A DNA stretch of 41,468 bases, from sequence record NC_019768.1, one strand, 5' to 3'. The notes below the pieces were generated by a model that worked only from the letters and a program-made list of their open reading frames with translations, was not told where the DNA came from and did no database searches. Source of the DNA: Escherichia phage HK106. Positions 2,008 to 19,276 of the stretch are shown one piece after another; the first letter of the stretch is position 1, and the number at the start of each line of letters is the position of its first letter. The position numbers were made by a program, and so were the translations under genes.

Positions 2008-3281
2008 TGGAAGAACCTAAATACACGATTGACCTGCGAACCAATAACGGCTGGTGGGCAAGGCTGCAGTCCTGGTTTGTCGGCGGGCGTTTAGTCACCC
2101 CAAATCAGGGCTCACAGACGGGGCCTGTTTCGGCCCACGGACACCTGGGCGATTCATCCATTAACGATGAACGGATACTGCAAATTTCGACTGTGTGGCG
2201 CTGCGTGAGCCTGATTTCAACGCTCACGGCATGCTTACCGCTTGATGTCTTCGAAACAGACCAGAATGACAACCGTAAAAAAGTGGATTTGAGCAATCCA
2301 CTGGCGCGACTGCTGCGCTACTCACCGAATCAGTACATGACCGCCCAAGAATTCAGGGAGGCCATGACGATGCAGCTCTGTTTCTACGGTAACGCATATG
2401 CACTTGTGGACCGCAACAGCGCAGGTGACGTGATCAGCCTTCTCCCGCTTCAGTCTGCCAATATGGATGTGAAGCTCGTCGGAAAAAAAGTGGTTTATCG
2501 CTATCAACGCGACAGCGAATACGCCGACTTTTCGCAGAAAGAGATTTTTCACCTTAAAGGCTTCGGATTCACCGGGCTTGTAGGCCTGTCACCCATTGCT
2601 TTTGCCTGTAAATCGGCAGGTGTGGCAGTTGCGATGGAGGACCAGCAGCGAGATTTCTTTGCCAACGGCGCCAAGTCTCCGCAAATCCTCTCAACTGGCG
2701 AAAAAGTGCTAACTGAACAGCAGCGCTCCCAGGTCGAAGAGAACTTCAAAGAGATCGCCGGCGGCCCGGTAAAAAAACGCCTCTGGATTCTGGAAGCGGG
2801 TTTTTCTACATCGGCAATTGGCGTAACTCCGCAGGATGCCGAAATGATGGCGTCCCGAAAATTTCAGGTAAGTGAACTGGCGCGATTCTTTGGCGTACCG
2901 CCTCACCTTGTCGGCGACGTCGAGAAATCAACGAGCTGGGGATCGGGCATCGAGCAGCAGAATCTCGGCTTCCTGCAGTACACCCTGCAGCCCTATATCT
3001 CCAGGTGGGAAAACAGCATTCAGCGGTGGCTTATTCCTGCTAAGGATGTTGGCCGCATTCATGCTGAGCACAACCTCGACGGCCTGCTGAGGGGCGATTC
3101 GGCATCCCGCGCTGCCTTTATGAAGGCAATGGGAGAGGCAGGGCTACGCACCATCAACGAGATGCGACGAACGGACAACCTCCCGCCATTGCCGGGTGGC
3201 GATGTGGCAATGCGCCAGTCGCAATACGTGCCGATCACCGATTTAGGAACCAACAAAGAGCCCCGTAATAACGGGGCTTAA
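2007..3281 (+). CDS. portal protein (HK97 family)
   Basis: about 424 aa; ATG at 2007 overlaps the terminase stop (TGATG); track start 2004 is GTG; size and position typical of HK97-type portal. Confidence 0.85.
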   Translation: MEEPKYTIDLRTNNGWWARLQSWFVGGRLVTPNQGSQTGPVSAHGHLGDSSINDERILQISTVWRCVSLISTLTACLPLDVFETDQNDNRKKVDLSNPLARLLRYSPNQYMTAQEFREAMTMQLCFYGNAYALVDRNSAGDVISLLPLQSANMDVKLVGKKVVYRYQRDSEYADFSQKEIFHLKGFGFTGLVGLSPIAFACKSAGVAVAMEDQQRDFFANGAKSPQILSTGEKVLTEQQRSQVEENFKEIAGGPVKKRLWILEAGFSTSAIGVTPQDAEMMASRKFQVSELARFFGVPPHLVGDVEKSTSWGSGIEQQNLGFLQYTLQPYISRWENSIQRWLIPAKDVGRIHAEHNLDGLLRGDSASRAAFMKAMGEAGLRTINEMRRTDNLPPLPGGDVAMRQSQYVPITDLGTNKEPRNNGA

Positions 3282-3286
3282 TTTTT

Positions 3287-3976
3287 ATGGGGGCCGTAAT
3301 GCCTGAAATCGTAAAAACGCTGTCCTTCGACGAGACAGAAATCAAATTCACCGGTGACGGTAAACAGGGGATTTTTGAAGGCTACGCCTCTGTTTTTAAT
3401 AACACCGATTCCGCTGGCGACATCATTCTGCCCGGGGCGTTTAAAAACGCGCTGGCGAACCAGACCCGAAAAGTGGCGATGTTTTTTAACCACAGGACGT
3501 GGGAACTGCCGGTTGGCAAATGGGACAGCCTGGCTGAAGACGAAAAAGGCCTGTATGTGCGCGGTCAACTTACCCCAGGACACAGCGGCGCCGCTGACCT
3601 GAAAGCGGCAATGCAGCACGGTACGGTTGAAGGTATGTCGGTTGGCTTTTCCGTTTCGAAAGACGATTACACCATCATTCCAACAGGCCGCATTTTTAAG
3701 AATATCCAGGCTCTGCGAGAAATCAGCGTCTGCACTTTCCCCGCCAACGAACAGGCTGGCATCGCAGCCATGAAAAGTGTCGATGGCATTGAAACGATTC
3801 GTGATGTGGAGAACTGGCTGAGGGATTCAGTCGGCCTCACCAAATCACAGGCAGTTGGGCTAATTGCCCGGTTTAAGTCAGCGATTCGGAGCGAGTCCGA
3901 GGGCGACGGAAACGAAGCACAAATAAACGCTCTGCTTCAGAGCATCAAATCTTTCCCTTCTAACTTAGGTAAATAA
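3287..3976 (+). CDS. prohead maturation protease (HK97 gp4-like)
   Basis: 229-aa ORF between portal and major capsid protein; alternative in-frame ATG at 3299. Confidence 0.8.
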   Translation: MGAVMPEIVKTLSFDETEIKFTGDGKQGIFEGYASVFNNTDSAGDIILPGAFKNALANQTRKVAMFFNHRTWELPVGKWDSLAEDEKGLYVRGQLTPGHSGAADLKAAMQHGTVEGMSVGFSVSKDDYTIIPTGRIFKNIQALREISVCTFPANEQAGIAAMKSVDGIETIRDVENWLRDSVGLTKSQAVGLIARFKSAIRSESEGDGNEAQINALLQSIKSFPSNLGK

Positions 3977-3978
3977 TT

Positions 3979-5133
3979 ATGTCTGAACTCGCTCTCATTC
4001 AAAAAGCTATCGAAGAATCCCAGCAGAAAATGACCCAGCTTTTCGATGCGCAGAAAGCAGAAATCGAAAGCACAGGCCAGGTTTCCAAACAGTTGCAGTC
4101 CGACCTGATGAAAGTACAGGAAGAGCTGACCAAATCCGGCACTCGCCTCTTCGATCTGGAACAGAAACTGGCATCCGGCGCTGAGAATCCTGGTGAGAAG
4201 AAATCCTTCTCTGAACGGGCTGCTGAAGAGCTTATTAAGTCATGGGACGGTAAACAGGGCACCTTTGGCGCTAAAACGTTTAACAAGTCACTAGGCAGTG
4301 ACGCTGGTTCGGCTGGCTCACTGATCCAGCCTATGCAGATCCCAGGCATCATCATGCCAGGCCTGCGCCGTCTTACCATTCGTGATCTGCTGGCTCAGGG
4401 CCGCACTTCCAGTAACGCTCTGGAATATGTGCGTGAAGAGGTGTTTACCAATAACGCCGACGTGGTGGCAGAGAAAGCACTGAAGCCAGAATCGGATATC
4501 ACCTTCAGCAAACAAACCGCGAACGTGAAGACCATCGCGCACTGGGTGCAGGCATCACGTCAGGTGATGGATGATGCGCCAATGCTTCAGTCCTACATTA
4601 ACAACCGCCTCATGTACGGCCTGGCACTGAAGGAAGAGGGCCAGCTGCTGAACGGCGACGGTACCGGAGATAACCTGGAAGGGCTGAACAAAGTGGCAAC
4701 CGCCTATGACACCTCGCTGAATGCCACCGGCGACACCCGCGCTGACATTATCGCTCACGCTATTTATCAGGTGACCGAGTCTGAGTTCAGCGCTTCCGGT
4801 ATCGTCCTGAACCCGCGCGACTGGCACAACATCGCGTTGCTGAAAGACAATGAAGGCCGCTATATCTTCGGTGGTCCTCAGGCATTCACCAGTAACATCA
4901 TGTGGGGCTTGCCAGTGGTTCCGACTAAGGCGCAGGCCGCCGGCACCTTTACCGTAGGCGGTTTCGATATGGCCTCACAGGTCTGGGATCGCATGGATGC
5001 CACCGTGGAAGTTAGCCGTGAAGACCGCGATAACTTCGTGAAAAACATGCTGACCATCCTGTGCGAAGAGCGTCTGGCGCTGGCGCATTATCGCCCGACA
5101 GCAATCATCAAGGGCACCTTCTCTGCTGACTAA
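3979..5133 (+). CDS. major capsid protein, HK97 fold (gp5-like)
   Basis: 384-aa protein whose N-terminus (MSELALIQKAIEESQQKMTQLF...) and overall sequence match HK97 gp5 as I recall it; follows the protease. Confidence 0.9.
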   Translation: MSELALIQKAIEESQQKMTQLFDAQKAEIESTGQVSKQLQSDLMKVQEELTKSGTRLFDLEQKLASGAENPGEKKSFSERAAEELIKSWDGKQGTFGAKTFNKSLGSDAGSAGSLIQPMQIPGIIMPGLRRLTIRDLLAQGRTSSNALEYVREEVFTNNADVVAEKALKPESDITFSKQTANVKTIAHWVQASRQVMDDAPMLQSYINNRLMYGLALKEEGQLLNGDGTGDNLEGLNKVATAYDTSLNATGDTRADIIAHAIYQVTESEFSASGIVLNPRDWHNIALLKDNEGRYIFGGPQAFTSNIMWGLPVVPTKAQAAGTFTVGGFDMASQVWDRMDATVEVSREDRDNFVKNMLTILCEERLALAHYRPTAIIKGTFSAD

Positions 5134-5142
5134 TGATGGAGG

Positions 5143-5166
5143 GGGCGGGGAAACCCGCCCTTTTAA
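5143..5166 (+). terminator. intrinsic terminator-like hairpin after the capsid gene
   Basis: GGGGCGGG-gaaa-CCCGCCC followed by TTTTAA directly after the capsid stop codon. Confidence 0.5.
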
Positions 5167-5169
5167 CGT

Positions 5170-5496
5170 ATGGCGATAGATGTTCTGGATGTAATTCCCC
5201 TCAGTCTGTTTAAGCAGCAGATTGAGTTTGAGGAAGACGACAGGGACGAGCTGATCACGCTGTACGCCCAGGCCGCTTTTGACTACTGCATGCGCTGGTG
5301 CGATGAACCAGCATGGAAGGTTGCGGCTGATATTCCTGCCGCCGTTAAGGGCGCCGTTCTGCTTGTCTTTGCTGACATGTTTGAACACCGGACGGCACAA
5401 AGTGAAGTGCAGCTTTATGAGAATGCAGCCGCCGAACGCATGATGTTCATTCATCGCAACTGGCGCGGTAAAGCCGAATCAGAGGAGGGCTCCTGA
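5170..5496 (+). CDS. head-tail connector / DNA packaging protein (gp6-like)
   Basis: 108-aa ORF immediately after the capsid gene, typical position and size. Confidence 0.6.
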   Translation: MAIDVLDVIPLSLFKQQIEFEEDDRDELITLYAQAAFDYCMRWCDEPAWKVAADIPAAVKGAVLLVFADMFEHRTAQSEVQLYENAAAERMMFIHRNWRGKAESEEGS

Positions 5497-6280: not shown

Positions 6281-6624
6281 ATGAAGATAATATCTACGCC
6301 TTGCTTTCTCCCCTGGCAGAGGGGCGGGTATACCCCTATGTTGCGCCATTAGGTAGTGACGGGAAACCGTCTGTCTCTCCACCCTGGATTATCTTTTCCA
6401 TCGTCGATGATGTTTCCGCTGACGTACTGTGTGGCCAGGCAGAGAGCAGGGTTTCCGTTCAGGTCGATGTGTATGCCACAACGATCACTGAATCACGATC
6501 CCTGAGAGATTTGGCGCTCGCTTCGCTTAAGCAGTTAAACCCTACAGAGGTGGTAAAAATCCCCGGGTACGAGCCAGATTATCGGCTCTACCGTGCCACC
6601 CTGGATTTTAAAGTTACCCCCTGA
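6277..6624 (+). CDS. tail completion / tail terminator-like protein
   Basis: 115-aa ORF with GTG start overlapping upstream stop; last gene before the major tail protein. Confidence 0.5.
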   Translation: MNEDNIYALLSPLAEGRVYPYVAPLGSDGKPSVSPPWIIFSIVDDVSADVLCGQAESRVSVQVDVYATTITESRSLRDLALASLKQLNPTEVVKIPGYEPDYRLYRATLDFKVTP

Positions 6625-6635
6625 CGATTAATTCA

Positions 6636-6670
6636 CCCAACGAACCCGCCTGATGGCGGGTTTTCTTTTT
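6636..6670 (+). terminator. terminator-like hairpin upstream of major tail gene
   Basis: AACCCGCC-tgat-GGCGGGTT followed by TTCTTTTT. Confidence 0.4.
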
Positions 6671-6683
6671 CCAGGAGACAGCT

Positions 6684-7388
6684 ATGTCTGCACTTTATGA
6701 AAAATCGCAGCTGACGAAGATCCTTATTTCCTCCCTGCCAGCCACCAAAGAAACGATGGATTCCGCCACCTTTCTCGATCTGAGTTGCACCATCAAAGAA
6801 ATTCAGTTCACTGGTGGCCAGAAGCAGGATATCGACGTAACAACACTTTGCTCTACCGAGCAGGAGAACATCAACGGCCTGCCTTCTCCGTCAGAAATCT
6901 CTCTGTCCGGCAACTTCTACAATAATCCAGCGCAGGACGCCTTGCGTGATGCGTATGACAACGACACCACTTACGGCTTCCAGATCATCTTCCCGTCAGG
7001 TAATGGTTTTAAGTTCCTGGCCGAAGTTCGCCAGCATACCTGGTCATCTGGTACCAATGGTGTTGTGGCAGCTACATTCTCACTGCGCCTTAAAGGCAAG
7101 CCTGTCCCGATTGACTCTGTACTTAAACTGACCACTGATCTTCCTTCCTCACTGTCTGTAGCGGTGGGGGCTGCGATCAGCATGGCTGTAGTAGCTGCCG
7201 GTGGTAAGCCTCCGTATGCCTACACCTGGAAGAAGGCAGGTAGCACCGTCAGCGGGCAGACATCCGATACCTTTAATAAAGCCACCGCAGTTTCAGGTGA
7301 TGCAGGTGATTACACCTGTGTGGTTACGGATTCTTCTTCTCCGGTCAAAACGGTTACCTCAGCTGCCTGCACCCTTACTATCAGTTAA
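6684..7388 (+). CDS. major tail protein with C-terminal Ig-like domain
   Basis: 234-aa ORF with SD CAGGAG; C-terminal about 80 aa resemble a bacterial Ig-like domain (…GDAGDYTCVVTDSSSPVKTVTSAACTLTIS); precedes the G/GT chaperone pair. Confidence 0.75.
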   Translation: MSALYEKSQLTKILISSLPATKETMDSATFLDLSCTIKEIQFTGGQKQDIDVTTLCSTEQENINGLPSPSEISLSGNFYNNPAQDALRDAYDNDTTYGFQIIFPSGNGFKFLAEVRQHTWSSGTNGVVAATFSLRLKGKPVPIDSVLKLTTDLPSSLSVAVGAAISMAVVAAGGKPPYAYTWKKAGSTVSGQTSDTFNKATAVSGDAGDYTCVVTDSSSPVKTVTSAACTLTIS

Positions 7389-8096: not shown

Positions 8097-8153
8097 TTGC
8101 TTCACATGCCTTCAATGTAGCGATACGCTCTTTCCTTAAGTAAAGGAGGCGTT

Positions 8154-8342
8154 ATGGAACCACTGGTAGTAGTGTTTGGAATATTCGGCTGGCTGATAAA
8201 TCTAATTGTGATTTTTTATTTATTACGGTTTAGCACAAGGGCAAATGAACAAGTTGAAGCCCTTAAAGAGATAAATAAAAAGCAAGATGCGCAAATAGAT
8301 TTATTAATACAAGTCGCTCACCAAAGAAAAGACAGTTTATAA
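8154..8342 (+). CDS. small single-TM moron protein, HK97 gp15 / YebO-like putative superinfection exclusion protein
   Basis: 62 aa, strong SD AAGGAGG, N-terminal hydrophobic helix then charged helix; sits between GT and tape measure where HK97 carries the gp15 moron; followed by its own terminator. Confidence 0.55.
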   Translation: MEPLVVVFGIFGWLINLIVIFYLLRFSTRANEQVEALKEINKKQDAQIDLLIQVAHQRKDSL

Positions 8343-8345
8343 CTC

Positions 8346-8372
8346 ACGACCCGCTATCAAGCGGGTTTTTTT
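8346..8372 (+). terminator. intrinsic terminator
   Basis: CCCGCT-atca-AGCGGG followed by TTTTTTT. Confidence 0.7.
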
Positions 8373-8384
8373 ATGGGTGAAAAT

Positions 8385-11300
8385 ATGGCTACGTTGCGCG
8401 AACTGATCATCAAAATATCTGCAAACTCTCAGTCATTCCAGTCTGAAATTTCTCGTGCTTCAAGAATGGGGAATGACTATTACCGGGTAATGCAGACTGG
8501 AGGACGCCAATCGGCCGCAGCTTCGCGTGAAACTCAGCGTGCCTTGGCTGAGGTAACTAGTCAAATAAACACCGCGAAGGCCTCAGCACTGGGAATGGCT
8601 GGTGCATTTGCTGGAGCATTTGCGACTGGTCATCTTATATCGCTGGCCGATGAATGGAGCTCTATTAATGCCAGGCTAAAGCAGGCTTCCCAGTCGTCAG
8701 ATGATTTCACGGAGTCCCAGCGGGCGCTGATGGATATTAGCCAGCGAACCGGAACCGCCTTCTCTGATAATGCGAGTCTTTTTGCGCGTTCAGCCGCTTC
8801 TATGCGTGAATATGGCTACAGTTCAGAAGAGGTTCTGAAGGTAACCGAGGCTATATCAACAGGGCTTAAGCTGTCAGGCGCAAGCGCGTCTGAAGCGAGT
8901 TCGGTAATCACGCAGTTCAGCCAGGCTCTGGCGCAGGGTGTTCTTCGAGGCGAGGAATTTAACTCCGTCAACGAAAACGGTGATCGAGTTATCCGTGCTC
9001 TTGCCGCAGGGATGGGTGTAGCTCGTAAAGATCTGAAGGCAATGGCCGATCAGGGGATGCTAACCGCAGATAAAGTTGTCCCGGCCCTGATAAGTCAACT
9101 TGGCACTATGCGTGGTGAATTTGAGGCAATGCCGCAGACCGTTTCTGCTGCCACGACGAAAGTCGAAAATGCTTTCATGGCATGGGTAGGTGGCGCTAAT
9201 GAAGCCACTGGTGCGACAAGTACTCTTGTTGCCGTATTGAATACGGTTTCTGACAATATAGACACTGTGGCTACGGCTGCCGGAGCTTTGGCTGCGATAG
9301 GTGGAGCTCGCTATCTTGGAGGGATGTTTGGCGATCTTGGGAACCAGACGGCGCAATTAATAGATGCCAGAAAGAACGAAATTGCGCTCGCAGCTGCAAG
9401 GGCTGAATCTGCTACCCAATCACAACGCAAGGCCGCCGCCGATGCTATTGCTGCTGAGCGAGCTTACCAGCTTGCTCAGTCAGAACTTGTGCTGGCAAAG
9501 AATACTAATGCTGAGGCTACTGCCACTCAAAATGCCATATCCAAGCGCCGGGCAATGATTACAGCAAATGCGGCACTGGTACAGTCAAACAGAGCCGTTG
9601 CAGCCTCTCAGCAGGCACTTAACTCTGCAACATCAGTGCTGGGGCTTGTAAAAACTGGCGCTACGGGTCTTTTGTCGTTAGTTGGTGGTTTGCCAGGAAT
9701 TTTAATGTTGGGTGCTGGGGCGTGGTACACGATGTATCAACGCCAAGAACAAGCCAGGGAATCTGCAATCAAATATGCGGACACAATAGAGCAGGTACGA
9801 GATAATCTGAAATCAATGTCTCAGACGCAGATATCCGCCAACCTTGGACAGGCGAATATTTCACTGGATGCTCAGAATAGTGCGATTGAACAGCAGAAGC
9901 AGAAAGTTGCTGAATTATCCAATCAACTTTATAACGCAAAATTAGCAGCCAATTCTGCTTCAGAGGGGACATGGCTGTATAACGATGCGGTTGAGAAAGC
10001 CGCAGACTTTGCTTCAGAACTTGCGGTTGAAGAAGGCCGACTTGAGCAAATGCTCAATAAAAGAAAGCAAACACAACAGTTAATAAACGACATAACTGAT
10101 CAGGCTATAAATAAAACAGTAGAAATGGCTGGCGCCGTAAGTTCTCTTACAGAGATGTATGACCGGCTGAACAAGGTTTCCAGACAGTCTACAGCAGTGT
10201 CCCCACCAAAATATGCAGGACCTGTACTTCCTGCGCTTGATAATAAGCAACAACAAGCTATTGAGAAAGCACAGCGACAGCTTGAGTTATCTGGCCTTCA
10301 GGGTTTGGATAAGGCTCGAAAGCAGGCAGAATTCGATGCATCTGATCTGAACCTTCCAGCTGGTTGGCGTGAGAAATATGTCAGCATGGAAGTTGAGTCT
10401 GCCAGGCAATTACAAGCAATTCGTAACTCAAGCCGCCATAAGGGTGGAAAATCCGAGGCGGAAAAAACAGCTGATACCTATGACAAGCTGATCAAGCAGC
10501 AAAAAGAGCAGATCGCTCTGCAAGGGCAGAATACCGAGCTGGCAAAGGTTAAATATCAGGTAAGCCAGGGTGAGCTTTCTACGCTAAGTCAGGCCCAGAA
10601 AGCCGAAGTTATGCGTAATGCTGCTCTCATCGATCAGGTTAAATTGCGTGAGCAACTGCGAAATTACGAAGCCAACCTTGCTGACAGTAACGCCAGCGCC
10701 CGCGCAGCCAATGAAGCGCAACTGCTGGGATACGGGCAGGGAACCAGGTTCCGTGAAAGACTTCAGGAGCAGTTCAATCTGCGTAAGGAGTTTGAGCAGA
10801 AGAATACCGATCTTCTCCGCCAGCGTCAGGCTGGTGAAATCGACGAGACGTTCTATCAGCAGGGGCTGGCACTTAATAAGCGCTACCTCGAAGAGCGCCT
10901 GCGCGACCAGGAGGGATATTACGCAGCTTCTGATGCGCAGCGTGACGACTGGATGACGGGACTGTCTGAGGGTTATGCGAACTGGGTGGACGAAGCGACA
11001 GATTACTCCTCCATGGCCGCTGACGGCATGAAGCAGGCCATGGGTGGCGCGGTCACCACGATCACCGACATGCTCAATGGCAACGTTGACAGCTGGAAGG
11101 ACTGGGGCGTGAGCGTACTGAAGATCATCCAGAACGTTCTGGTGAACATGGCTGTTGCTAACGGCGTCAGTTCAATTGGTTCTCTCTTCAGCTTTGGCGC
11201 ATCTTCCGCCGCTGCCGCCAGTAGCGGTACTGCAATTCAGAACGCTGGCGCGAACTTCACCTTTAACGCGAAGGGTAATGTTTACGACTCTCCGTCCCTG

Positions 11301-12748: not shown

Positions 12749-13459
12749 ATGCGTCAGAAAACCGTCGATGAGATTATGGCGCATGCTGCAGCTGAATATC
12801 CTCGCGAGTGTTGCGGCGTGGTGGCGCAGAAAAGCCGTGTTGAACGTTATTTCCCGTGCCGGAATCTTGCCGCGGCGCCGGAGGACAATTTTGTCCTTTG
12901 CCCGGAAGATTACGCAGCTGCTGAGGACTGGGGTACGGTGATCGCCATCGTTCACAGTCACCCTGACGCCACAACGCAACCGAGCGAACTGGATAAAGCG
13001 CAATGCGACGCAACGCTTTTACCCTGGCACATCGTGAGCTGGCCTGAGGGGGATTTGCGCACCATCCAGCCGCGTGGGGAACTGCCGCTGCTGGAGCGTC
13101 CGTTTGTGCTTGGCCACTTCGACTGCTGGGGTCTGGTAATGAGCTATTTCCGGCAAACGCATGGTATCGAGCTCCACGATTACCGGGTTGATTATCCCTG
13201 GTGGGAAAACGACTATCCGGACAACTTCTATCAGGATTGCTGGTATGAGTGCGGATTCCGTGAATTCGACGGACCACCGAAACCCGGCGATATGGTGATC
13301 ATGCAGGTCCAGGCTGATAAGTGGAACCACGCTGGAATTCTGCTGGAGGGCAATATGCTGCTGCACCACCTGTACGGACATCTGAGCCAGCGCGTGCCGT
13401 ATGGTGGCTACTGGCAGGAAAGGACGATGAAGATTCTTAGACATCAGAATTTTATTTAA
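12749..13459 (+). CDS. tail assembly protein K (MPN/JAB + NlpC/P60-like)
   Basis: 236 aa; HSHP metal-binding motif and a later DCWG cysteine motif, as in lambda K. Confidence 0.8.
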   Translation: MRQKTVDEIMAHAAAEYPRECCGVVAQKSRVERYFPCRNLAAAPEDNFVLCPEDYAAAEDWGTVIAIVHSHPDATTQPSELDKAQCDATLLPWHIVSWPEGDLRTIQPRGELPLLERPFVLGHFDCWGLVMSYFRQTHGIELHDYRVDYPWWENDYPDNFYQDCWYECGFREFDGPPKPGDMVIMQVQADKWNHAGILLEGNMLLHHLYGHLSQRVPYGGYWQERTMKILRHQNFI

Positions 13460-13506
13460 CAAACTGTCACTGATACTATCGTGTAGTACACGGCAAGGAG
13501 AACGAT

Positions 13507-13731
13507 ATGTATACAGTTGGGTTTGGTTGGATCTTCGTCGGTATTTTTATTGGGTTAATTCTCTGGTTTTTCATCAACCGCGCCAGCGTCAGAGCGAACA
13601 GGCAGGTTGAATTACTTGAGTCTATCGACCAGAAATTATCAAAAATAGTAGATCCAAACTTCGAGGCAAATAACAAAGACCAGTCGAAAGAAAACTACCT
13701 TGAAGAAGCAAGGAAAAAAGCTGGGCTTTGA
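13507..13731 (+). CDS. second small single-TM moron protein, paralog of the 8154-8342 product
   Basis: 74 aa, SD AAGGAG; N-terminal TM helix then shared motif R-A-S/T-V/R-R-A-N-x-Q-V-E-x-L; own terminator downstream; inserted between K and I. Confidence 0.55.
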   Translation: MYTVGFGWIFVGIFIGLILWFFINRASVRANRQVELLESIDQKLSKIVDPNFEANNKDQSKENYLEEARKKAGL

Positions 13732-13740
13732 GAGCGTAAA

Positions 13741-13770
13741 TTAATAAACCACCTACGGGTGGTTTTTTTA
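13741..13770 (+). terminator. intrinsic terminator
   Basis: AACCACC-tacg-GGTGGTT followed by TTTTTTA. Confidence 0.7.
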
Positions 13771-13780
13771 TGGGGGCAGC

Positions 13781-14389
13781 ATGCAAGAGGTAATGACAAG
13801 AATTGAGCTAAGTGGCGTGCTAGCTAAGACATATGGAAGGGTTCATCACCGTCTGGTTCGCACTACTGCTGAAGCCATTAATGCACTCGCGAAAACCATC
13901 AATGGATTCGAGAAATTCTTAAACACAAGCAAAGCCCGAGGGCTGACGTATGCCGTTTATAGAGATAAAAAGAATATTGGCGTTGATGATCTCGGCTTTC
14001 CCGTCACCGGCGAAGTGATCCGGATTGTCCCTGTAGTAATAGGGAGTAAAAAGGCTGGTCTTTTGCAGACGATCTTGGGGGCCGTGCTTATTACTGCTGC
14101 TGTGTTGACTGGCCCCGGCGGTATTGGCGCTGCTTTCGCTGCTGGTGGATTGACGGGGTTTGCTGCTGCCACTGGTGCCTCGTTGGTCCTCGGTGGGGTT
14201 ATTCAGCTGCTTTCACCGCAGCCATCAGGCATAGCCAGTAAACAAAGCGCAGATAACCGTGCATCGTATGCGTTTGGCGGGGTAACCAACACTGCAGCGC
14301 AAGGCTACCCGGTGCCTCTGCTTTATGGTAAGCGTCGAATCGGCGGAGCGATTATTTCTGCCGGAATTTATGTCGAAGATCAGCAGTAG
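13781..14389 (+). CDS. tail assembly protein I
   Basis: 202 aa; N-terminal ubiquitin-like region and Gly/Ala-rich hydrophobic C-terminal half resembling lambda I. Confidence 0.8.
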   Translation: MQEVMTRIELSGVLAKTYGRVHHRLVRTTAEAINALAKTINGFEKFLNTSKARGLTYAVYRDKKNIGVDDLGFPVTGEVIRIVPVVIGSKKAGLLQTILGAVLITAAVLTGPGGIGAAFAAGGLTGFAAATGASLVLGGVIQLLSPQPSGIASKQSADNRASYAFGGVTNTAAQGYPVPLLYGKRRIGGAIISAGIYVEDQQ

Positions 14390-14401
14390 ATAACTAACCT
14401 T

Positions 14402-14431
14402 TTTTCTGGCCACCTTCGGGTGGCTTTTTTA
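14402..14431 (+). terminator. intrinsic terminator between I and J
   Basis: GGCCACC-ttcg-GGTGGC followed by TTTTTTA. Confidence 0.65.
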
Positions 14432-14441
14432 TGGGCGCAAT

Positions 14442-19042: not shown

Positions 19043-19276
19043 ATGAAAAGGCTAATTATCTGCATAGCGGGCGCTTTAATGCTGTCTGGTTGCGCTGGTG
19101 TACTTGAGAAACAGAAACCGATTTGCAGCGGCACGGCATATATGGGTGGCCATGAGAATACCGTTATGATTTACGCCGTTCGAAAGCAAAACAACCAGAC
19201 GCAATACCGGGCCGGATATCCCTTTAACTGGCGCTGGGTAAGTGCGAACACATTCACAAGCACGACATGTAAATAA
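19043..19276 (+). CDS. small lipoprotein, Cor-like putative superinfection exclusion protein
   Basis: 77 aa; signal peptide with lipobox LSGC; AT-rich upstream region and own terminator; position downstream of J where cor is found in phi80/HK022-type phages. Confidence 0.5.
   Translation: MKRLIICIAGALMLSGCAGVLEKQKPICSGTAYMGGHENTVMIYAVRKQNNQTQYRAGYPFNWRWVSANTFTSTTCK

What the first reader, a model, noticed from the sequence alone, without database searches (positions are those of the whole stretch)
13507..13770. Moron 2: a second, paralogous single-TM protein inserted between tail genes K and I
This 74-aa protein shares architecture and a conserved motif (R-A-S/T-V/R-R-A-N-x-Q-V-E-x-L after the TM helix) with the 8154-8342 product. 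It also has its own SD and terminator. Two diverged copies of one moron family at different points of a single tail operon is unusual and suggests either different targets or a cooperating pair.
Basis: seen in the sequence. Interest (0 to 1): 0.6.

Follow-up and report, generated by a model that had tools for sequence, protein, structure and literature searches.

The report
Second YebO-like moron in phage tail operon
This small gene between tail genes K and I is the already catalogued "gp20" add-on gene of HK97/HK022-like phages; it is a distant relative of the phage's known entry-blocking protein gp15, its own function has never been tested, and it most likely also blocks incoming phage DNA.

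Summary
ORF 13507-13731 (74 aa) has a Shine-Dalgarno site, an intrinsic terminator (13746-13769) and a GC dip. It sits between tail genes K and I.

Its product is related to the 8154-8342 product beyond the membrane helix (BLASTP E=5e-9). Both match Pfam YebO (PF13974) and PHROG 5031.

The window is an HK97-like coliphage, nearly identical to mEp234 in its left arm. The 8154 gene is HK97 gp15, a characterised superinfection-exclusion protein. The 13507 gene is identical to HK022 gp20, which was labelled a moron product in 2000 and has no tested function in any paper I could search.

The two genes are not a recent duplication, because they share no DNA similarity. They are two old lineages of one phage-borne family that occupies three tail-operon junctions (T|H, H|M, K|I). 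Recombination of modules brought them together: gp15 travels with the HK97-type tube and tape-measure module, and gp20 travels with the tip module. Each occurs without the other, so they are not an obligate pair.

The gp20 lineage is under strong purifying selection (dN/dS 0.04-0.08) and carries a conserved extended -10-like element. In HK97 itself, gene 20 has an amber codon.

Best guess (about 0.45): a prophage-expressed inner-membrane protein that blocks DNA injection, with a specificity different from gp15. Interest is modest.

The parts
13471..13479 (+). Candidate extended -10 promoter element TGATACTAT (-10 hexamer TACTAT at 13474-13479). It predicts a transcript starting near 13486.
   Evidence: There is a single match in the window. 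A TGnTAnnnT element lies 30-45 nt before the start codon in 14 of 21 diverged family loci at all three insertion sites, against 0.72 expected from shuffles. The strict sigma-70 scan found nothing here. Function is not shown.
13495..13500 (+). Shine-Dalgarno AAGGAG, 6 nt upstream of the ATG
   Evidence: Read directly from the sequence. AAGGAG is unchanged in seven of the eight aligned phages in this region.
13507..13731 (+). gp20-type YebO-family gene. The 74-aa product has a membrane helix at about residues 5-23, a juxtamembrane motif NRASVRANRQVELLESID, a variable linker and a C-terminal motif YLEEARKKAGL.
   Evidence: Supported. Hydropathy and flanking charges were computed. AlphaFold2 gives helix 2-48, a break, then helix 52-71, with mean pLDDT 74. 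dN/dS is 0.04-0.08.
13746..13769 (+). Intrinsic terminator of the moron (8-bp stem, loop TACG, T-run)
   Evidence: Found by the terminator scan and supported by folding. It is annotated as a rho-independent terminator in mEp234.
12749..13459 (+). Tail gene K (upstream neighbour)
   Evidence: Pfam Prok-JAB plus NlpC/P60. mEp234 annotation.
13781..14389 (+). Tail gene I (downstream neighbour)
   Evidence: Pfam Lambda_tail_I. In relatives that lack the insert, K and I overlap by 8 nt (L007).
8154..8342 (+). The gp15 gene: the other YebO-family moron, a 62-aa protein 98% identical to HK97 gp15
   Evidence: Supported. HK97 gp15 is a characterised superinfection-exclusion protein (PMC3594210).
8101..8129 (+). 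Candidate promoter of the gp15 moron: TTCACA-N17-TACGCT
   Evidence: Read. The Citrobacter gp15-type loci have TTCACA-N17-TACGAT at the same distance. The strict scan does not detect it.
8348..8373 (+). Intrinsic terminator of the gp15 moron
   Evidence: Found by the terminator scan.

Best explanation
The gene is the gp20-type member of the phage-borne branch of the YebO family. It is a self-contained moron (candidate promoter, SD, ORF, terminator) inserted at the K|I junction of a lambdoid tail operon.

Its product is a 74-aa single-pass inner-membrane protein. It is predicted to have about four residues in the periplasm and a helical tail of about 50 residues in the cytoplasm. It would be made from the repressed prophage, and also late in lytic growth by read-through of the tail operon.

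By homology with HK97 gp15, it most likely blocks the inner-membrane step of DNA injection by superinfecting siphophages. It would act independently of gp15 and with a different specificity. Together with gp15 and the Cor lipoprotein (19043-19276), this would give the lysogen layered entry blocks.

Shown here: gene structure, family membership, purifying selection, independence from gp15 in distribution, and dispensability for phage growth. Inferred: membrane topology, expression from the prophage, and any anti-phage activity.
For: - Family: it matches PF13974 and phrog_5031 together with gp15. Pairwise E is 5e-9, with most identities outside the membrane helix.
[quoted passage not shown] - Moron anatomy: terminator, SD, GC dip, and 'empty' K/I junctions in relatives.
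- Promoter hint: a TGnTAnnnT element lies at a constant distance in 14 of 21 diverged loci, against 0.72 expected.
- Selection: dN/dS is 0.04-0.08 in unsaturated pairs. The ORF is intact in every surveyed locus except HK97.
- Location: the family is found only inside lambdoid tail operons, at T|H, H|M or K|I, next to the tape-measure or tip genes.
- Link between the two lineages: a Klebsiella phage protein combines a gp15-like middle with the gp20-like C-terminus.
- Topology: hydrophobic helix at residues 5-23, no charge before it, and three positive charges within nine residues after it.
- Independence from gp15: gp20 occurs alone in HK022, mEp235, mEp506, ECP1 and HK542, while gp15-type occurs alone in Citrobacter, Klebsiella and Raoultella prophages.
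Against: - No experiment on gp20 was found in the searchable literature. The primary gp15 paper could not be read.
- Homology does not guarantee function. E. coli YebO shares the same core motif and is closer to gp20 than gp15 is (local alignment score 116.5 against 85). Yet overexpressing or deleting it had no effect on HK97 (PMC3594210).
- gp20 lacks the gp15-specific middle region and has its own C-terminal motif.
- An identical gp20 protein accompanies tape-measure proteins that are only 44-51% identical or have a different domain architecture. A gp15-style tape-measure-specific 'self' exclusion therefore cannot apply in all these phages.
- No strict sigma-70 promoter was detected.
- PADLOC has no model for it.
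Confidence: 0.45

Rival explanations
1. Lysogenic-conversion protein unrelated to phage defence. In this reading, gp20 mimics or perturbs the still unknown cellular role of host YebO, through the shared juxtamembrane motif that presumably binds a conserved host partner. It would change host envelope physiology rather than phage entry.
For: - gp20 shares IGLILWFFINRAS-R-N-Q-ELLE almost exactly with E. coli YebO.
- The most invariant part of the gp20 subfamily is this host-shared motif. That points to a conserved host partner rather than a fast-evolving phage target.
- The same gp20 protein is kept across phages with very different tape-measure proteins.
- YebO itself has no effect on HK97.
Against: - The only characterised family member is anti-phage.
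- Every phage copy surveyed sits inside a tail operon next to injection-machinery genes, not at the usual lysogenic-conversion sites.
- The phage clade has its own C-terminal motif (YLEEARKKAGL) in place of the chromosomal ...IPER ending.
Confidence: 0.25
2. Late-phase function for the phage's own benefit. Made mainly by read-through of the tail operon, gp20 would stop sibling virions (or the phage's own tape-measure or tip proteins) from engaging the inner membrane of the already infected, lysing cell. It would not be a prophage-expressed function.
For: - The gene lies in the late operon in the same orientation. No strong promoter was found by the strict scan.
- It is co-inherited with the tip module M-L-K-I-J: Spearman 0.48-0.61, against 0.05-0.32 for V, G and H.
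Against: - A promoter-like element conserved at a fixed distance, plus a dedicated terminator, argue for autonomous expression.
- HK97 grows well with an amber codon in gene 20, so any lytic role is dispensable.
- gp15 is expressed from the prophage.
Confidence: 0.12
3. Obligate cooperating pair. In this reading, gp15 and gp20 form a hetero-oligomer in the membrane and only work together.
For: - They share a homologous membrane helix and juxtamembrane helix that could pack together.
- They co-occur in seven sequenced E. coli phages besides the window.
Against: - Each occurs alone in many genomes.
- gp15 excludes phages from the HK97 prophage, whose gene 20 is interrupted.
- Their co-occurrence follows module boundaries.
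Confidence: 0.06
4. Decaying passenger. In this reading the ORF is a non-functional remnant that hitch-hikes with gene I.
For: - In E. coli phages its near-invariance is shared with a low-diversity block covering 13350-14240, so it is not specific to the gene.
- HK97 carries a nonsense allele.
- It is rare in E. coli genomes: 7 of 5426.
Against: - dN/dS is 0.04-0.08 between diverged orthologues.
- Two motifs are invariant across Escherichia, Enterobacter, Serratia and Pantoea.
- The ORF is intact in all other loci, with a conserved SD, promoter-like element and terminator at three different insertion sites.
Confidence: 0.04

Closest known systems
HK022 gp20 / mEp234_018 (and the equivalents in HK75, HK446, HK544, HK633, HK542, mEpX1, mEp235, mEp506 and ECP1)
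   Same: - The protein is identical wherever compared: full length in the surveyed loci, and residues 24-74 by tblastn in all eleven phages.
- It sits at the same K|I position with the same terminator.
- HK022_20 is annotated 'moron gene product'.
   Different: Nothing structural differs. None of these genes has an assigned function.
HK97 gp15 superinfection-exclusion protein (Cumby et al. 2012, J Bacteriol 194:5012; commentary PMC3594210)
   Same: - Same Pfam and PHROG family.
- Same architecture: a short N-terminus, one membrane helix, and the R-x-S-x-R-A-N-x-Q-V-E-x-L motif.
- A moron with its own terminator inside the tail operon.
   Different: - Overall identity is about 30%, or 43% over the 44 residues aligned by BLASTP. 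There is no DNA similarity.
- gp15 sits at T|H and always accompanies an HK97-type tape-measure protein, whereas gp20 sits at K|I and follows the tip module.
- gp15 lacks the YLEEARKKAGL tail. gp20 lacks the KEINKKQDAQIDLLIQVAH segment.
- Activity has been tested only for gp15.
Chromosomal YebO of E. coli and other Enterobacterales (PF13974; b1825, next to mgrB)
   Same: The membrane helix and juxtamembrane core are nearly identical to gp20 (GLILWFFINRAS).
   Different: - YebO is longer (95 aa), with an N-terminal extension and a C-terminal ...IIRLVAER ending.
- It is chromosomal and not in a prophage.
- DNA is only 71% identical over 101 nt, so this is not a recent capture.
- Its function is unknown, and it has no effect on HK97.
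Klebsiella phage 77-aa YebO-like protein (e.g. phage P7641, at the T|H position)
   Same: It has the same phage-clade C-terminus, YLEEARKKAGL, and the same core motif.
   Different: Its middle region is gp15-like, and it occupies the gp15 position. It therefore bridges the two lineages.
Cor (HK022/N15/phi80) and T5 Llp: entry-exclusion lipoproteins encoded near tail genes
   Same: These are small envelope proteins from the tail region that protect the lysogen at the entry step. A cor gene is present in this window at 19043-19276.
   Different: They are lipoproteins that inactivate the outer-membrane receptor FhuA (PMC3594210). gp20 has no signal peptide or lipobox and is unrelated in sequence.
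DicB and SgrT: small proteins that inhibit PTS permeases used by phages at the inner membrane (PMC6832061)
   Same: They are a possible mechanistic analogue: a small protein acting on an inner-membrane host factor needed for siphophage DNA entry.
   Different: There is no sequence relationship, and those proteins are not encoded in tail operons. This is an analogy only.

Membership tests
Pfam PF13974 YebO-like family | Profile score above the curated gathering threshold | tested here: met
   47.7 bits against a cut-off of 27, E=1.8e-12. RefSeq names the identical gene 'YebO family protein'.
Pfam PF13974 YebO-like family | A single N-terminal membrane helix followed by the juxtamembrane motif NRAS-R-x-N-x-Q-x-ELLE | tested here: met
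   The peak of the Kyte-Doolittle profile covers residues 5-23. The motif is invariant in the subfamily and shared with YebO.
Orthologue of chromosomal YebO | Chromosomal locus next to mgrB, an N-terminal extension, and a C-terminal ...[IV][PA]ER ending | tested here: not met
   The gene lies in a phage tail operon. Its N-terminus has 4 residues before the helix, and its C-terminus is YLEEARKKAGL.
HK97 gp15-type superinfection exclusion | Sequence homology to gp15 | tested here: met
   BLASTP E=5e-9. Both are in phrog_5031.
HK97 gp15-type superinfection exclusion | Location at the T|H junction, linked to an HK97-type tape-measure protein (PF06120) | tested here: not met
   gp20 sits at K|I. 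The identical protein also occurs with the HK022-type tape-measure protein, which lacks PF06120. All gp15-type loci are at T|H.
HK97 gp15-type superinfection exclusion | The gp15-specific middle and C-terminal segment (KEINKKQDAQIDLLIQVAH) | tested here: not met
   In gp20 this is replaced by ESIDQKLSKIVDPNFE...YLEEARKKAGL.
HK97 gp15-type superinfection exclusion | Inner-membrane localisation | not testable with these tools
   Only predicted, from hydropathy and the positive-inside rule and from a helical model.
HK97 gp15-type superinfection exclusion | Expression from the repressed prophage | tested here: inconclusive
   A conserved extended -10-like element is present, but the strict sigma-70 scan gave no hit. 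No transcript data are available.
HK97 gp15-type superinfection exclusion | Blocks DNA entry without blocking adsorption | not testable with these tools
   This needs plating, adsorption and DNA-entry assays.
Moron (sense of Juhala et al. 2000, as summarised in PMC3594210) | An extra gene between conserved neighbours that is absent from related genomes | tested here: met
   K and I overlap by 8 nt in relatives without the insert (L007). Here they are 321 nt apart.
Moron (sense of Juhala et al. 2000, as summarised in PMC3594210) | Own terminator and deviating base composition | tested here: met
   Terminator. GC is 0.40-0.42 against 0.50-0.60 in the flanks.
Moron (sense of Juhala et al. 2000, as summarised in PMC3594210) | Own promoter | tested here: inconclusive
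   TGATACTAT lies at 13471-13479 and is positionally conserved across the family. This is not verified experimentally.
Cor/Llp-type exclusion lipoproteins | Signal peptide with a lipobox cysteine | tested here: not met
   The gp20 sequence contains no cysteine at all. Contrast Cor at 19043-19276, with LSGC.

The most novel reading that the evidence does not exclude
The phage branch of the YebO family is marked by a short N-terminus and the C-terminal YLEEARKKAGL motif; gp15 would be a truncated offshoot of it. This branch could be an old family of injection blockers that lives in tail operons and moves between three operon junctions together with its own extended -10 promoter and terminator.

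Within that family, gp20-type proteins could form a second class that is not specific for the tape-measure protein. They might act on a conserved host inner-membrane factor or on the tip module. HK97-like prophages would then carry two mechanistically different inner-membrane entry blocks plus Cor.

The amber codon in gene 20 of laboratory HK97 would explain why this second layer has not been reported.
Probability: 0.3. Interest if true: 0.5.

Novelty: new member of a known kind. Interest (0 to 1): 0.33.

Why it matters
gp15 is the textbook 'first moron' and one of the few known proteins that block siphophage DNA injection at the inner membrane of Gram-negative bacteria. Its mechanism is still unknown.

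A natural, diverged homologue in the same operon offers a ready-made comparison:
- the membrane core is the same;
- the cytoplasmic tail is different;
- the linkage is different (tip module rather than tape-measure module).

Chimeras and escape mutants between the two could show which part sets specificity. They could also show what the shared YebO motif binds, and so shed light on the uncharacterised host protein YebO.

Practically, it would add another entry-exclusion determinant to consider when predicting host range of lambdoid phages. The scope is narrow. The whole family has only 81 representatives at 50% identity among 1.84 billion proteins. The gene occurs in 7 of 5426 complete E. coli genomes.

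Tried and rejected
- **Recent intragenomic duplication: rejected.** blastn with word size 7 finds no significant similarity between the two morons. gp20 is closer to chromosomal yebO (71% over 101 nt) than to gp15.
- **Recent capture of E. coli yebO: rejected** by the same 71% figure.
- **Special nucleotide-level conservation of gp20: rejected.** Only 1 of its 225 positions varies among the eight aligned sequences. However, the gene lies inside a low-diversity block (13350-14240) that also covers most of gene I.
- **gp20 targets tail protein I: set aside.** gp20 co-varies best with I (rho 0.61), and I has hydrophobic helices. But lambda gpI is proposed to insert into the outer membrane (PMC11101478, PMC12617516), and physical linkage confounds the correlation.
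- **Searches that found nothing useful:**
  - PADLOC gave no hit.
  - NCBIfam gave nothing above cut-off.
  - Rfam gave no match in the whole window.
  - The strict sigma-70 scan found no promoter upstream of either moron.
  - A scan of one genome per species found only 5 gp20-type loci.
- **Literature:**
  - The primary gp15 paper (PMC3430355) is not held.
  - An unrestricted 'YebO' search was swamped by the surname Yeboah.
  - Searches for HK022 gp20 returned only P22 gp20, which is unrelated.
- **Structure:** no fold search was run on the AlphaFold model, because a two-helix 74-aa model would not give informative matches.

Full report
**1. What is in the sequence**

The ORF at 13507-13731 (+) encodes 74 aa: MYTVGFGWIFVGIFIGLILWFFINRASVRANRQVELLESIDQKLSKIVDPNFEANNKDQSKENYLEEARKKAGL.
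- AAGGAG lies at 13495-13500, 6 nt before the start codon.
- An intrinsic terminator follows the stop: stem 13746-13765, loop TACG, T-run to 13769. Its fold energy is -15.4 kcal/mol, z = -3.0 against shuffles.
- The neighbours are K (12749-13459; Prok-JAB plus NlpC/P60) and I (13781-14389; Lambda_tail_I).
- GC falls to 0.40-0.42 over 13400-13800, and to 0.36-0.40 over the other small gene at 8100-8400. The flanks are 0.50-0.60.

The finding's end coordinate simply includes the terminator.

**2. Is the similarity to the 8154-8342 product real?**

Yes.
- BLASTP of the two proteins gives E=5e-9, with 19 identities in 44 aligned positions. Twelve of the 19 lie after the hydrophobic helix, in R-[A/F]-S-[V/T]-R-A-N-x-Q-V-E-x-L-x-x-I-x-x-K.
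- Both proteins exceed Pfam's gathering score for PF13974 'YebO-like' (47.7 and 38.7 bits against 27).
- Both belong to phrog_5031.

**3. What the window is, and what the two genes are called**

The left arm of the window is 99.8-100% identical to Escherichia phage mEp234, at the same coordinates, and 93-98% identical to other HK97-like phages. The right arm is a mosaic: only 67% is covered by mEp234.
- The 8154 gene is HK97 gene 15 (98-100% identical protein).
- The 13507 gene is mEp234_018, annotated as similar to HK022 gp20. HK022_20 has been annotated 'moron gene product' since the HK97/HK022 genome paper.
- RefSeq annotates both genes in E. coli prophages as 'YebO family protein'.

HK97 gp15 was the first moron product described. 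[quoted passage not shown] It belongs to the YebO family. Overexpressing or deleting E. coli YebO had no effect on HK97 (PMC3594210). [quoted passage not shown]

I found no paper that tests gp20 or notes that it is a second YebO-family gene in the same operon. The primary gp15 paper is not in the library, so I cannot exclude that it mentions gp20.

**4. Anatomy of the protein and the family**

- Hydropathy places one membrane helix at residues 5-23. No charged residue precedes it, and three positive charges fall within the nine residues after it. The positive-inside rule therefore predicts N-terminus out and C-terminus in.
- AlphaFold2 on a 15-sequence alignment gives one long helix (2-48), a break at DPN, and a second helix (52-71), with mean pLDDT 74.
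- Thirty-eight gp20-type clusters were found in Escherichia, Enterobacter, Serratia, Pantoea and metagenomes. In an alignment of fifteen of them, W20, R25-N31, Q33, L36-I40, L44, E67 and K70 are invariant. That gives two conserved blocks, NRASVRANRQVELLESID and YLEEARKKAGL, separated by a variable linker.
- A profile search of 1.84 billion representative proteins found only 81 family members at E<=1e-3.
- These members sort into four groups:
  - chromosomal YebO types, about 90-107 aa, with an N-terminal extension and a C-terminal ...IPER/VAER ending;
  - phage types with a short N-terminus and the YLxEARKKxG ending;
  - short gp15-like forms without that ending;
  - a few forms of about 150 aa with an extra C-terminal domain.
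- A 77-aa Klebsiella phage protein bridges the two lineages. Its middle (KEISEKQSAQIDLLIALAHKKE) is gp15-like, and its end (YLEEARKKAGLI) is gp20-like. gp15 therefore looks like a C-terminally shortened offshoot of the same phage clade.

**5. Not a duplication: two modules brought together**

The two morons share no detectable DNA similarity. gp20 is closer to chromosomal yebO (71% over 101 nt; protein alignment score 116.5) than to gp15 (score 85).

Across 63 fetched loci, a YebO-like gene occurs only inside lambdoid tail operons, at three junctions:

| Junction | Who carries it |
|---|---|
| T\|H | all gp15-type loci; also Klebsiella and some Pantoea gp20-type loci |
| H\|M | Pantoea and related loci |
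| K\|I | Escherichia, Enterobacter, Serratia |

Each junction also exists in an 'empty' state. K and I overlap by 8 nt, and T and H are 28 nt apart, in L007. H and M are 2 nt apart in the window.

Two copies in one operon occur only in the E. coli HK97 group: HK97, HK75, HK446, HK544, HK633, mEp234, mEpX1 and this window.
- gp15-type genes always precede an HK97-type tape-measure protein (PF06120), whatever the tip module.
- The identical gp20 protein accompanies three tape-measure types. These are 44-51% identical to each other, only over the C-terminal third for the HK022 type (full length for HK97 vs ECP1); the HK022 type lacks PF06120. The M-L-K-I-J module stays within 11% divergence.
- Over 27 distinct loci, gp20 distances track I, M, K, J and L (Spearman 0.48-0.61) much better than V, G and H (0.05-0.32). 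Physical linkage confounds this, so it is a hint about inheritance, not about a target.

**6. Is it a working gene?**

- dN/dS between diverged gp20 orthologues is 0.04-0.08 wherever synonymous sites are not saturated. For example, the window against L040 gives dN 0.046 and dS 0.74.
- The ORF is intact in every surveyed locus except HK97. There, the only variable position in the whole coding sequence among eight aligned phages is C->T at the position equivalent to window 13603. This turns the invariant Q33 codon into TAG.
  - This explains why gene 20 is not annotated in HK97.
  - It shows the gene is dispensable for plaque growth.
  - It means that work on HK97 lysogens would not have seen any gp20 activity.
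- The near-invariance of gp20 among E. coli phages is not special. It is shared with a low-diversity block from 13350 to 14240.

**7. Expression signals**

The strict sigma-70 scan finds no promoter upstream of either moron. However, TGATACTAT (13471-13479) fits the extended -10 pattern TGnTAnnnT.
- The same pattern lies 30-45 nt before the start codon in 14 of 21 diverged representatives from all three junctions. Composition-matched shuffles give 0.72 on average and never more than 4.
- The loci are homologous, so this measures conservation rather than independent occurrence.
- The gp15 lineage instead has TTCACA-N17-TACGCT or TACGAT at the equivalent place.
- Nearly every locus also has its own hairpin-plus-T-run terminator.

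Together these fit the definition of a moron as an autonomous transcription unit. Transcription itself is not shown.

**8. Most likely mechanism**

I commit to the following. gp20 is a prophage-expressed, single-pass inner-membrane protein. It interferes with the inner-membrane step of DNA injection by incoming siphophages. It works independently of gp15 and has a different specificity. My confidence is about 0.45.

- Steps shown: family membership, membrane-protein architecture, moron anatomy, purifying selection, independent distribution, and dispensability.
- Steps inferred: topology, prophage expression, and anti-phage activity.

The main reasons for caution:
- YebO carries the same core motif and is inactive against HK97.
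- gp20 lacks the gp15-specific region.
- One gp20 sequence serves phages with very different tape-measure proteins. If it excludes phages, its determinant is probably a conserved host factor or the tip module rather than the tape-measure protein.

If the predicted topology is right, only about four residues face the periplasm. Action would then have to occur within the bilayer or at the cytoplasmic face. DicB and SgrT, small proteins that inhibit PTS permeases used by phages, are a possible analogue (PMC6832061).

**9. Rivals**

| Rival | Confidence | Main point |
|---|---|---|
| Lysogenic-conversion protein acting on the unknown YebO pathway | 0.25 | Shares the host YebO core motif |
| Late-phase function for the phage itself | 0.12 | Lies in the late operon |
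| Obligate gp15-gp20 pair | 0.06 | Contradicted by independent occurrence and by gp15 working in HK97, whose gene 20 is interrupted |
| Decaying passenger | 0.04 | Contradicted by dN/dS and conserved signals |

A targeting of tail protein I was considered because of the co-variation and I's hydrophobic helices. However, lambda gpI is proposed to enter the outer membrane, not the inner membrane.

**10. Verdict**

It misses that both genes are catalogued and that one is characterised.
- The double arrangement is a product of modular recombination, not duplication.
- This is a new, uncharacterised member of a known kind.
- Interest is modest (0.33). What is useful here:
  - a clean, testable hypothesis;
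  - the HK97 amber explanation;
  - the three-junction distribution;
  - the conserved promoter-like element;
  - the family anatomy.

Noticed in passing
L001 1404-1406 (HK97, AF069529 position ~13656); equivalent to window 13603: In HK97 itself, gene 20 carries CAG->TAG at the invariant Q33 codon, leaving a 32-aa ORF. It is the only variable position in the coding sequence among eight aligned phages, and the gene is not annotated in the HK97 records. A glutamine-inserting supE host would restore the wild-type protein.
   Followed up: yes
window 14408-14431: An intrinsic terminator (GGCCACCTTCGGGTGGC plus a T-run) lies between I and J with no gene of its own. At this junction HK97 and HK022 carry the gp22 and gp23 (srb) morons. 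Its core CCACCTTCGGGTGG closely resembles the gp20 terminator and the terminators of gp20-type morons at other junctions (L007, L046).
   Followed up: partly
window 8362-8375, 13763-13775, 14425-14435: All three tail-operon terminators are followed by the same string, T-run then ATGGG (TTTTTTTATGGGTG, TTTTTTTATGGGGG, TTTTTTATGGGCA). This could be a shared moron 3' boundary or a coincidence. It is unexplained.
   Followed up: no
window 19043-19276: A cor gene (77-aa lipoprotein with lipobox LSGC) lies downstream of J. This phage therefore carries three small envelope proteins in its tail region that are known or suspected entry blockers: gp15, gp20 and Cor.
   Followed up: partly
L004 3929-4162 (Klebsiella phage P7641) and about 20 other Klebsiella phage records: A single 77-aa YebO-like gene sits at the T|H junction. 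Its product joins a gp15-like middle to a gp20-like C-terminus, which makes it a natural chimera useful for mapping specificity. It is unannotated in several records.
   Followed up: partly
L061 8962-9426, L062 8962-9426, L063 8947-9411: These are 154-aa family members with the usual helix and motif plus an extra C-terminal domain of about 90 aa. They sit just after the tape-measure gene in prophages with a different tip module.
   Followed up: no
window 13350-14240: A low-diversity block covers the end of K, the moron and the first three quarters of I. It has 0-4 variable columns per 100 nt among eight phages, against 18-26 per 100 nt in other parts of K. This suggests a recently shared recombinant segment.
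   Followed up: partly
L010 (mEp506, PV340542) 2173-5452 and 6550-7259: In this record the tape-measure gene is split into three ORFs and K into two. These are either frameshift sequencing errors or genuine disruptions.
   Followed up: no
window 17000-41468: mEp234 covers the right arm only 67% (98.7% identity), and HK97 or HK022 cover about 53%. The window is therefore a mosaic relative of mEp234 rather than mEp234 itself.
   Followed up: partly
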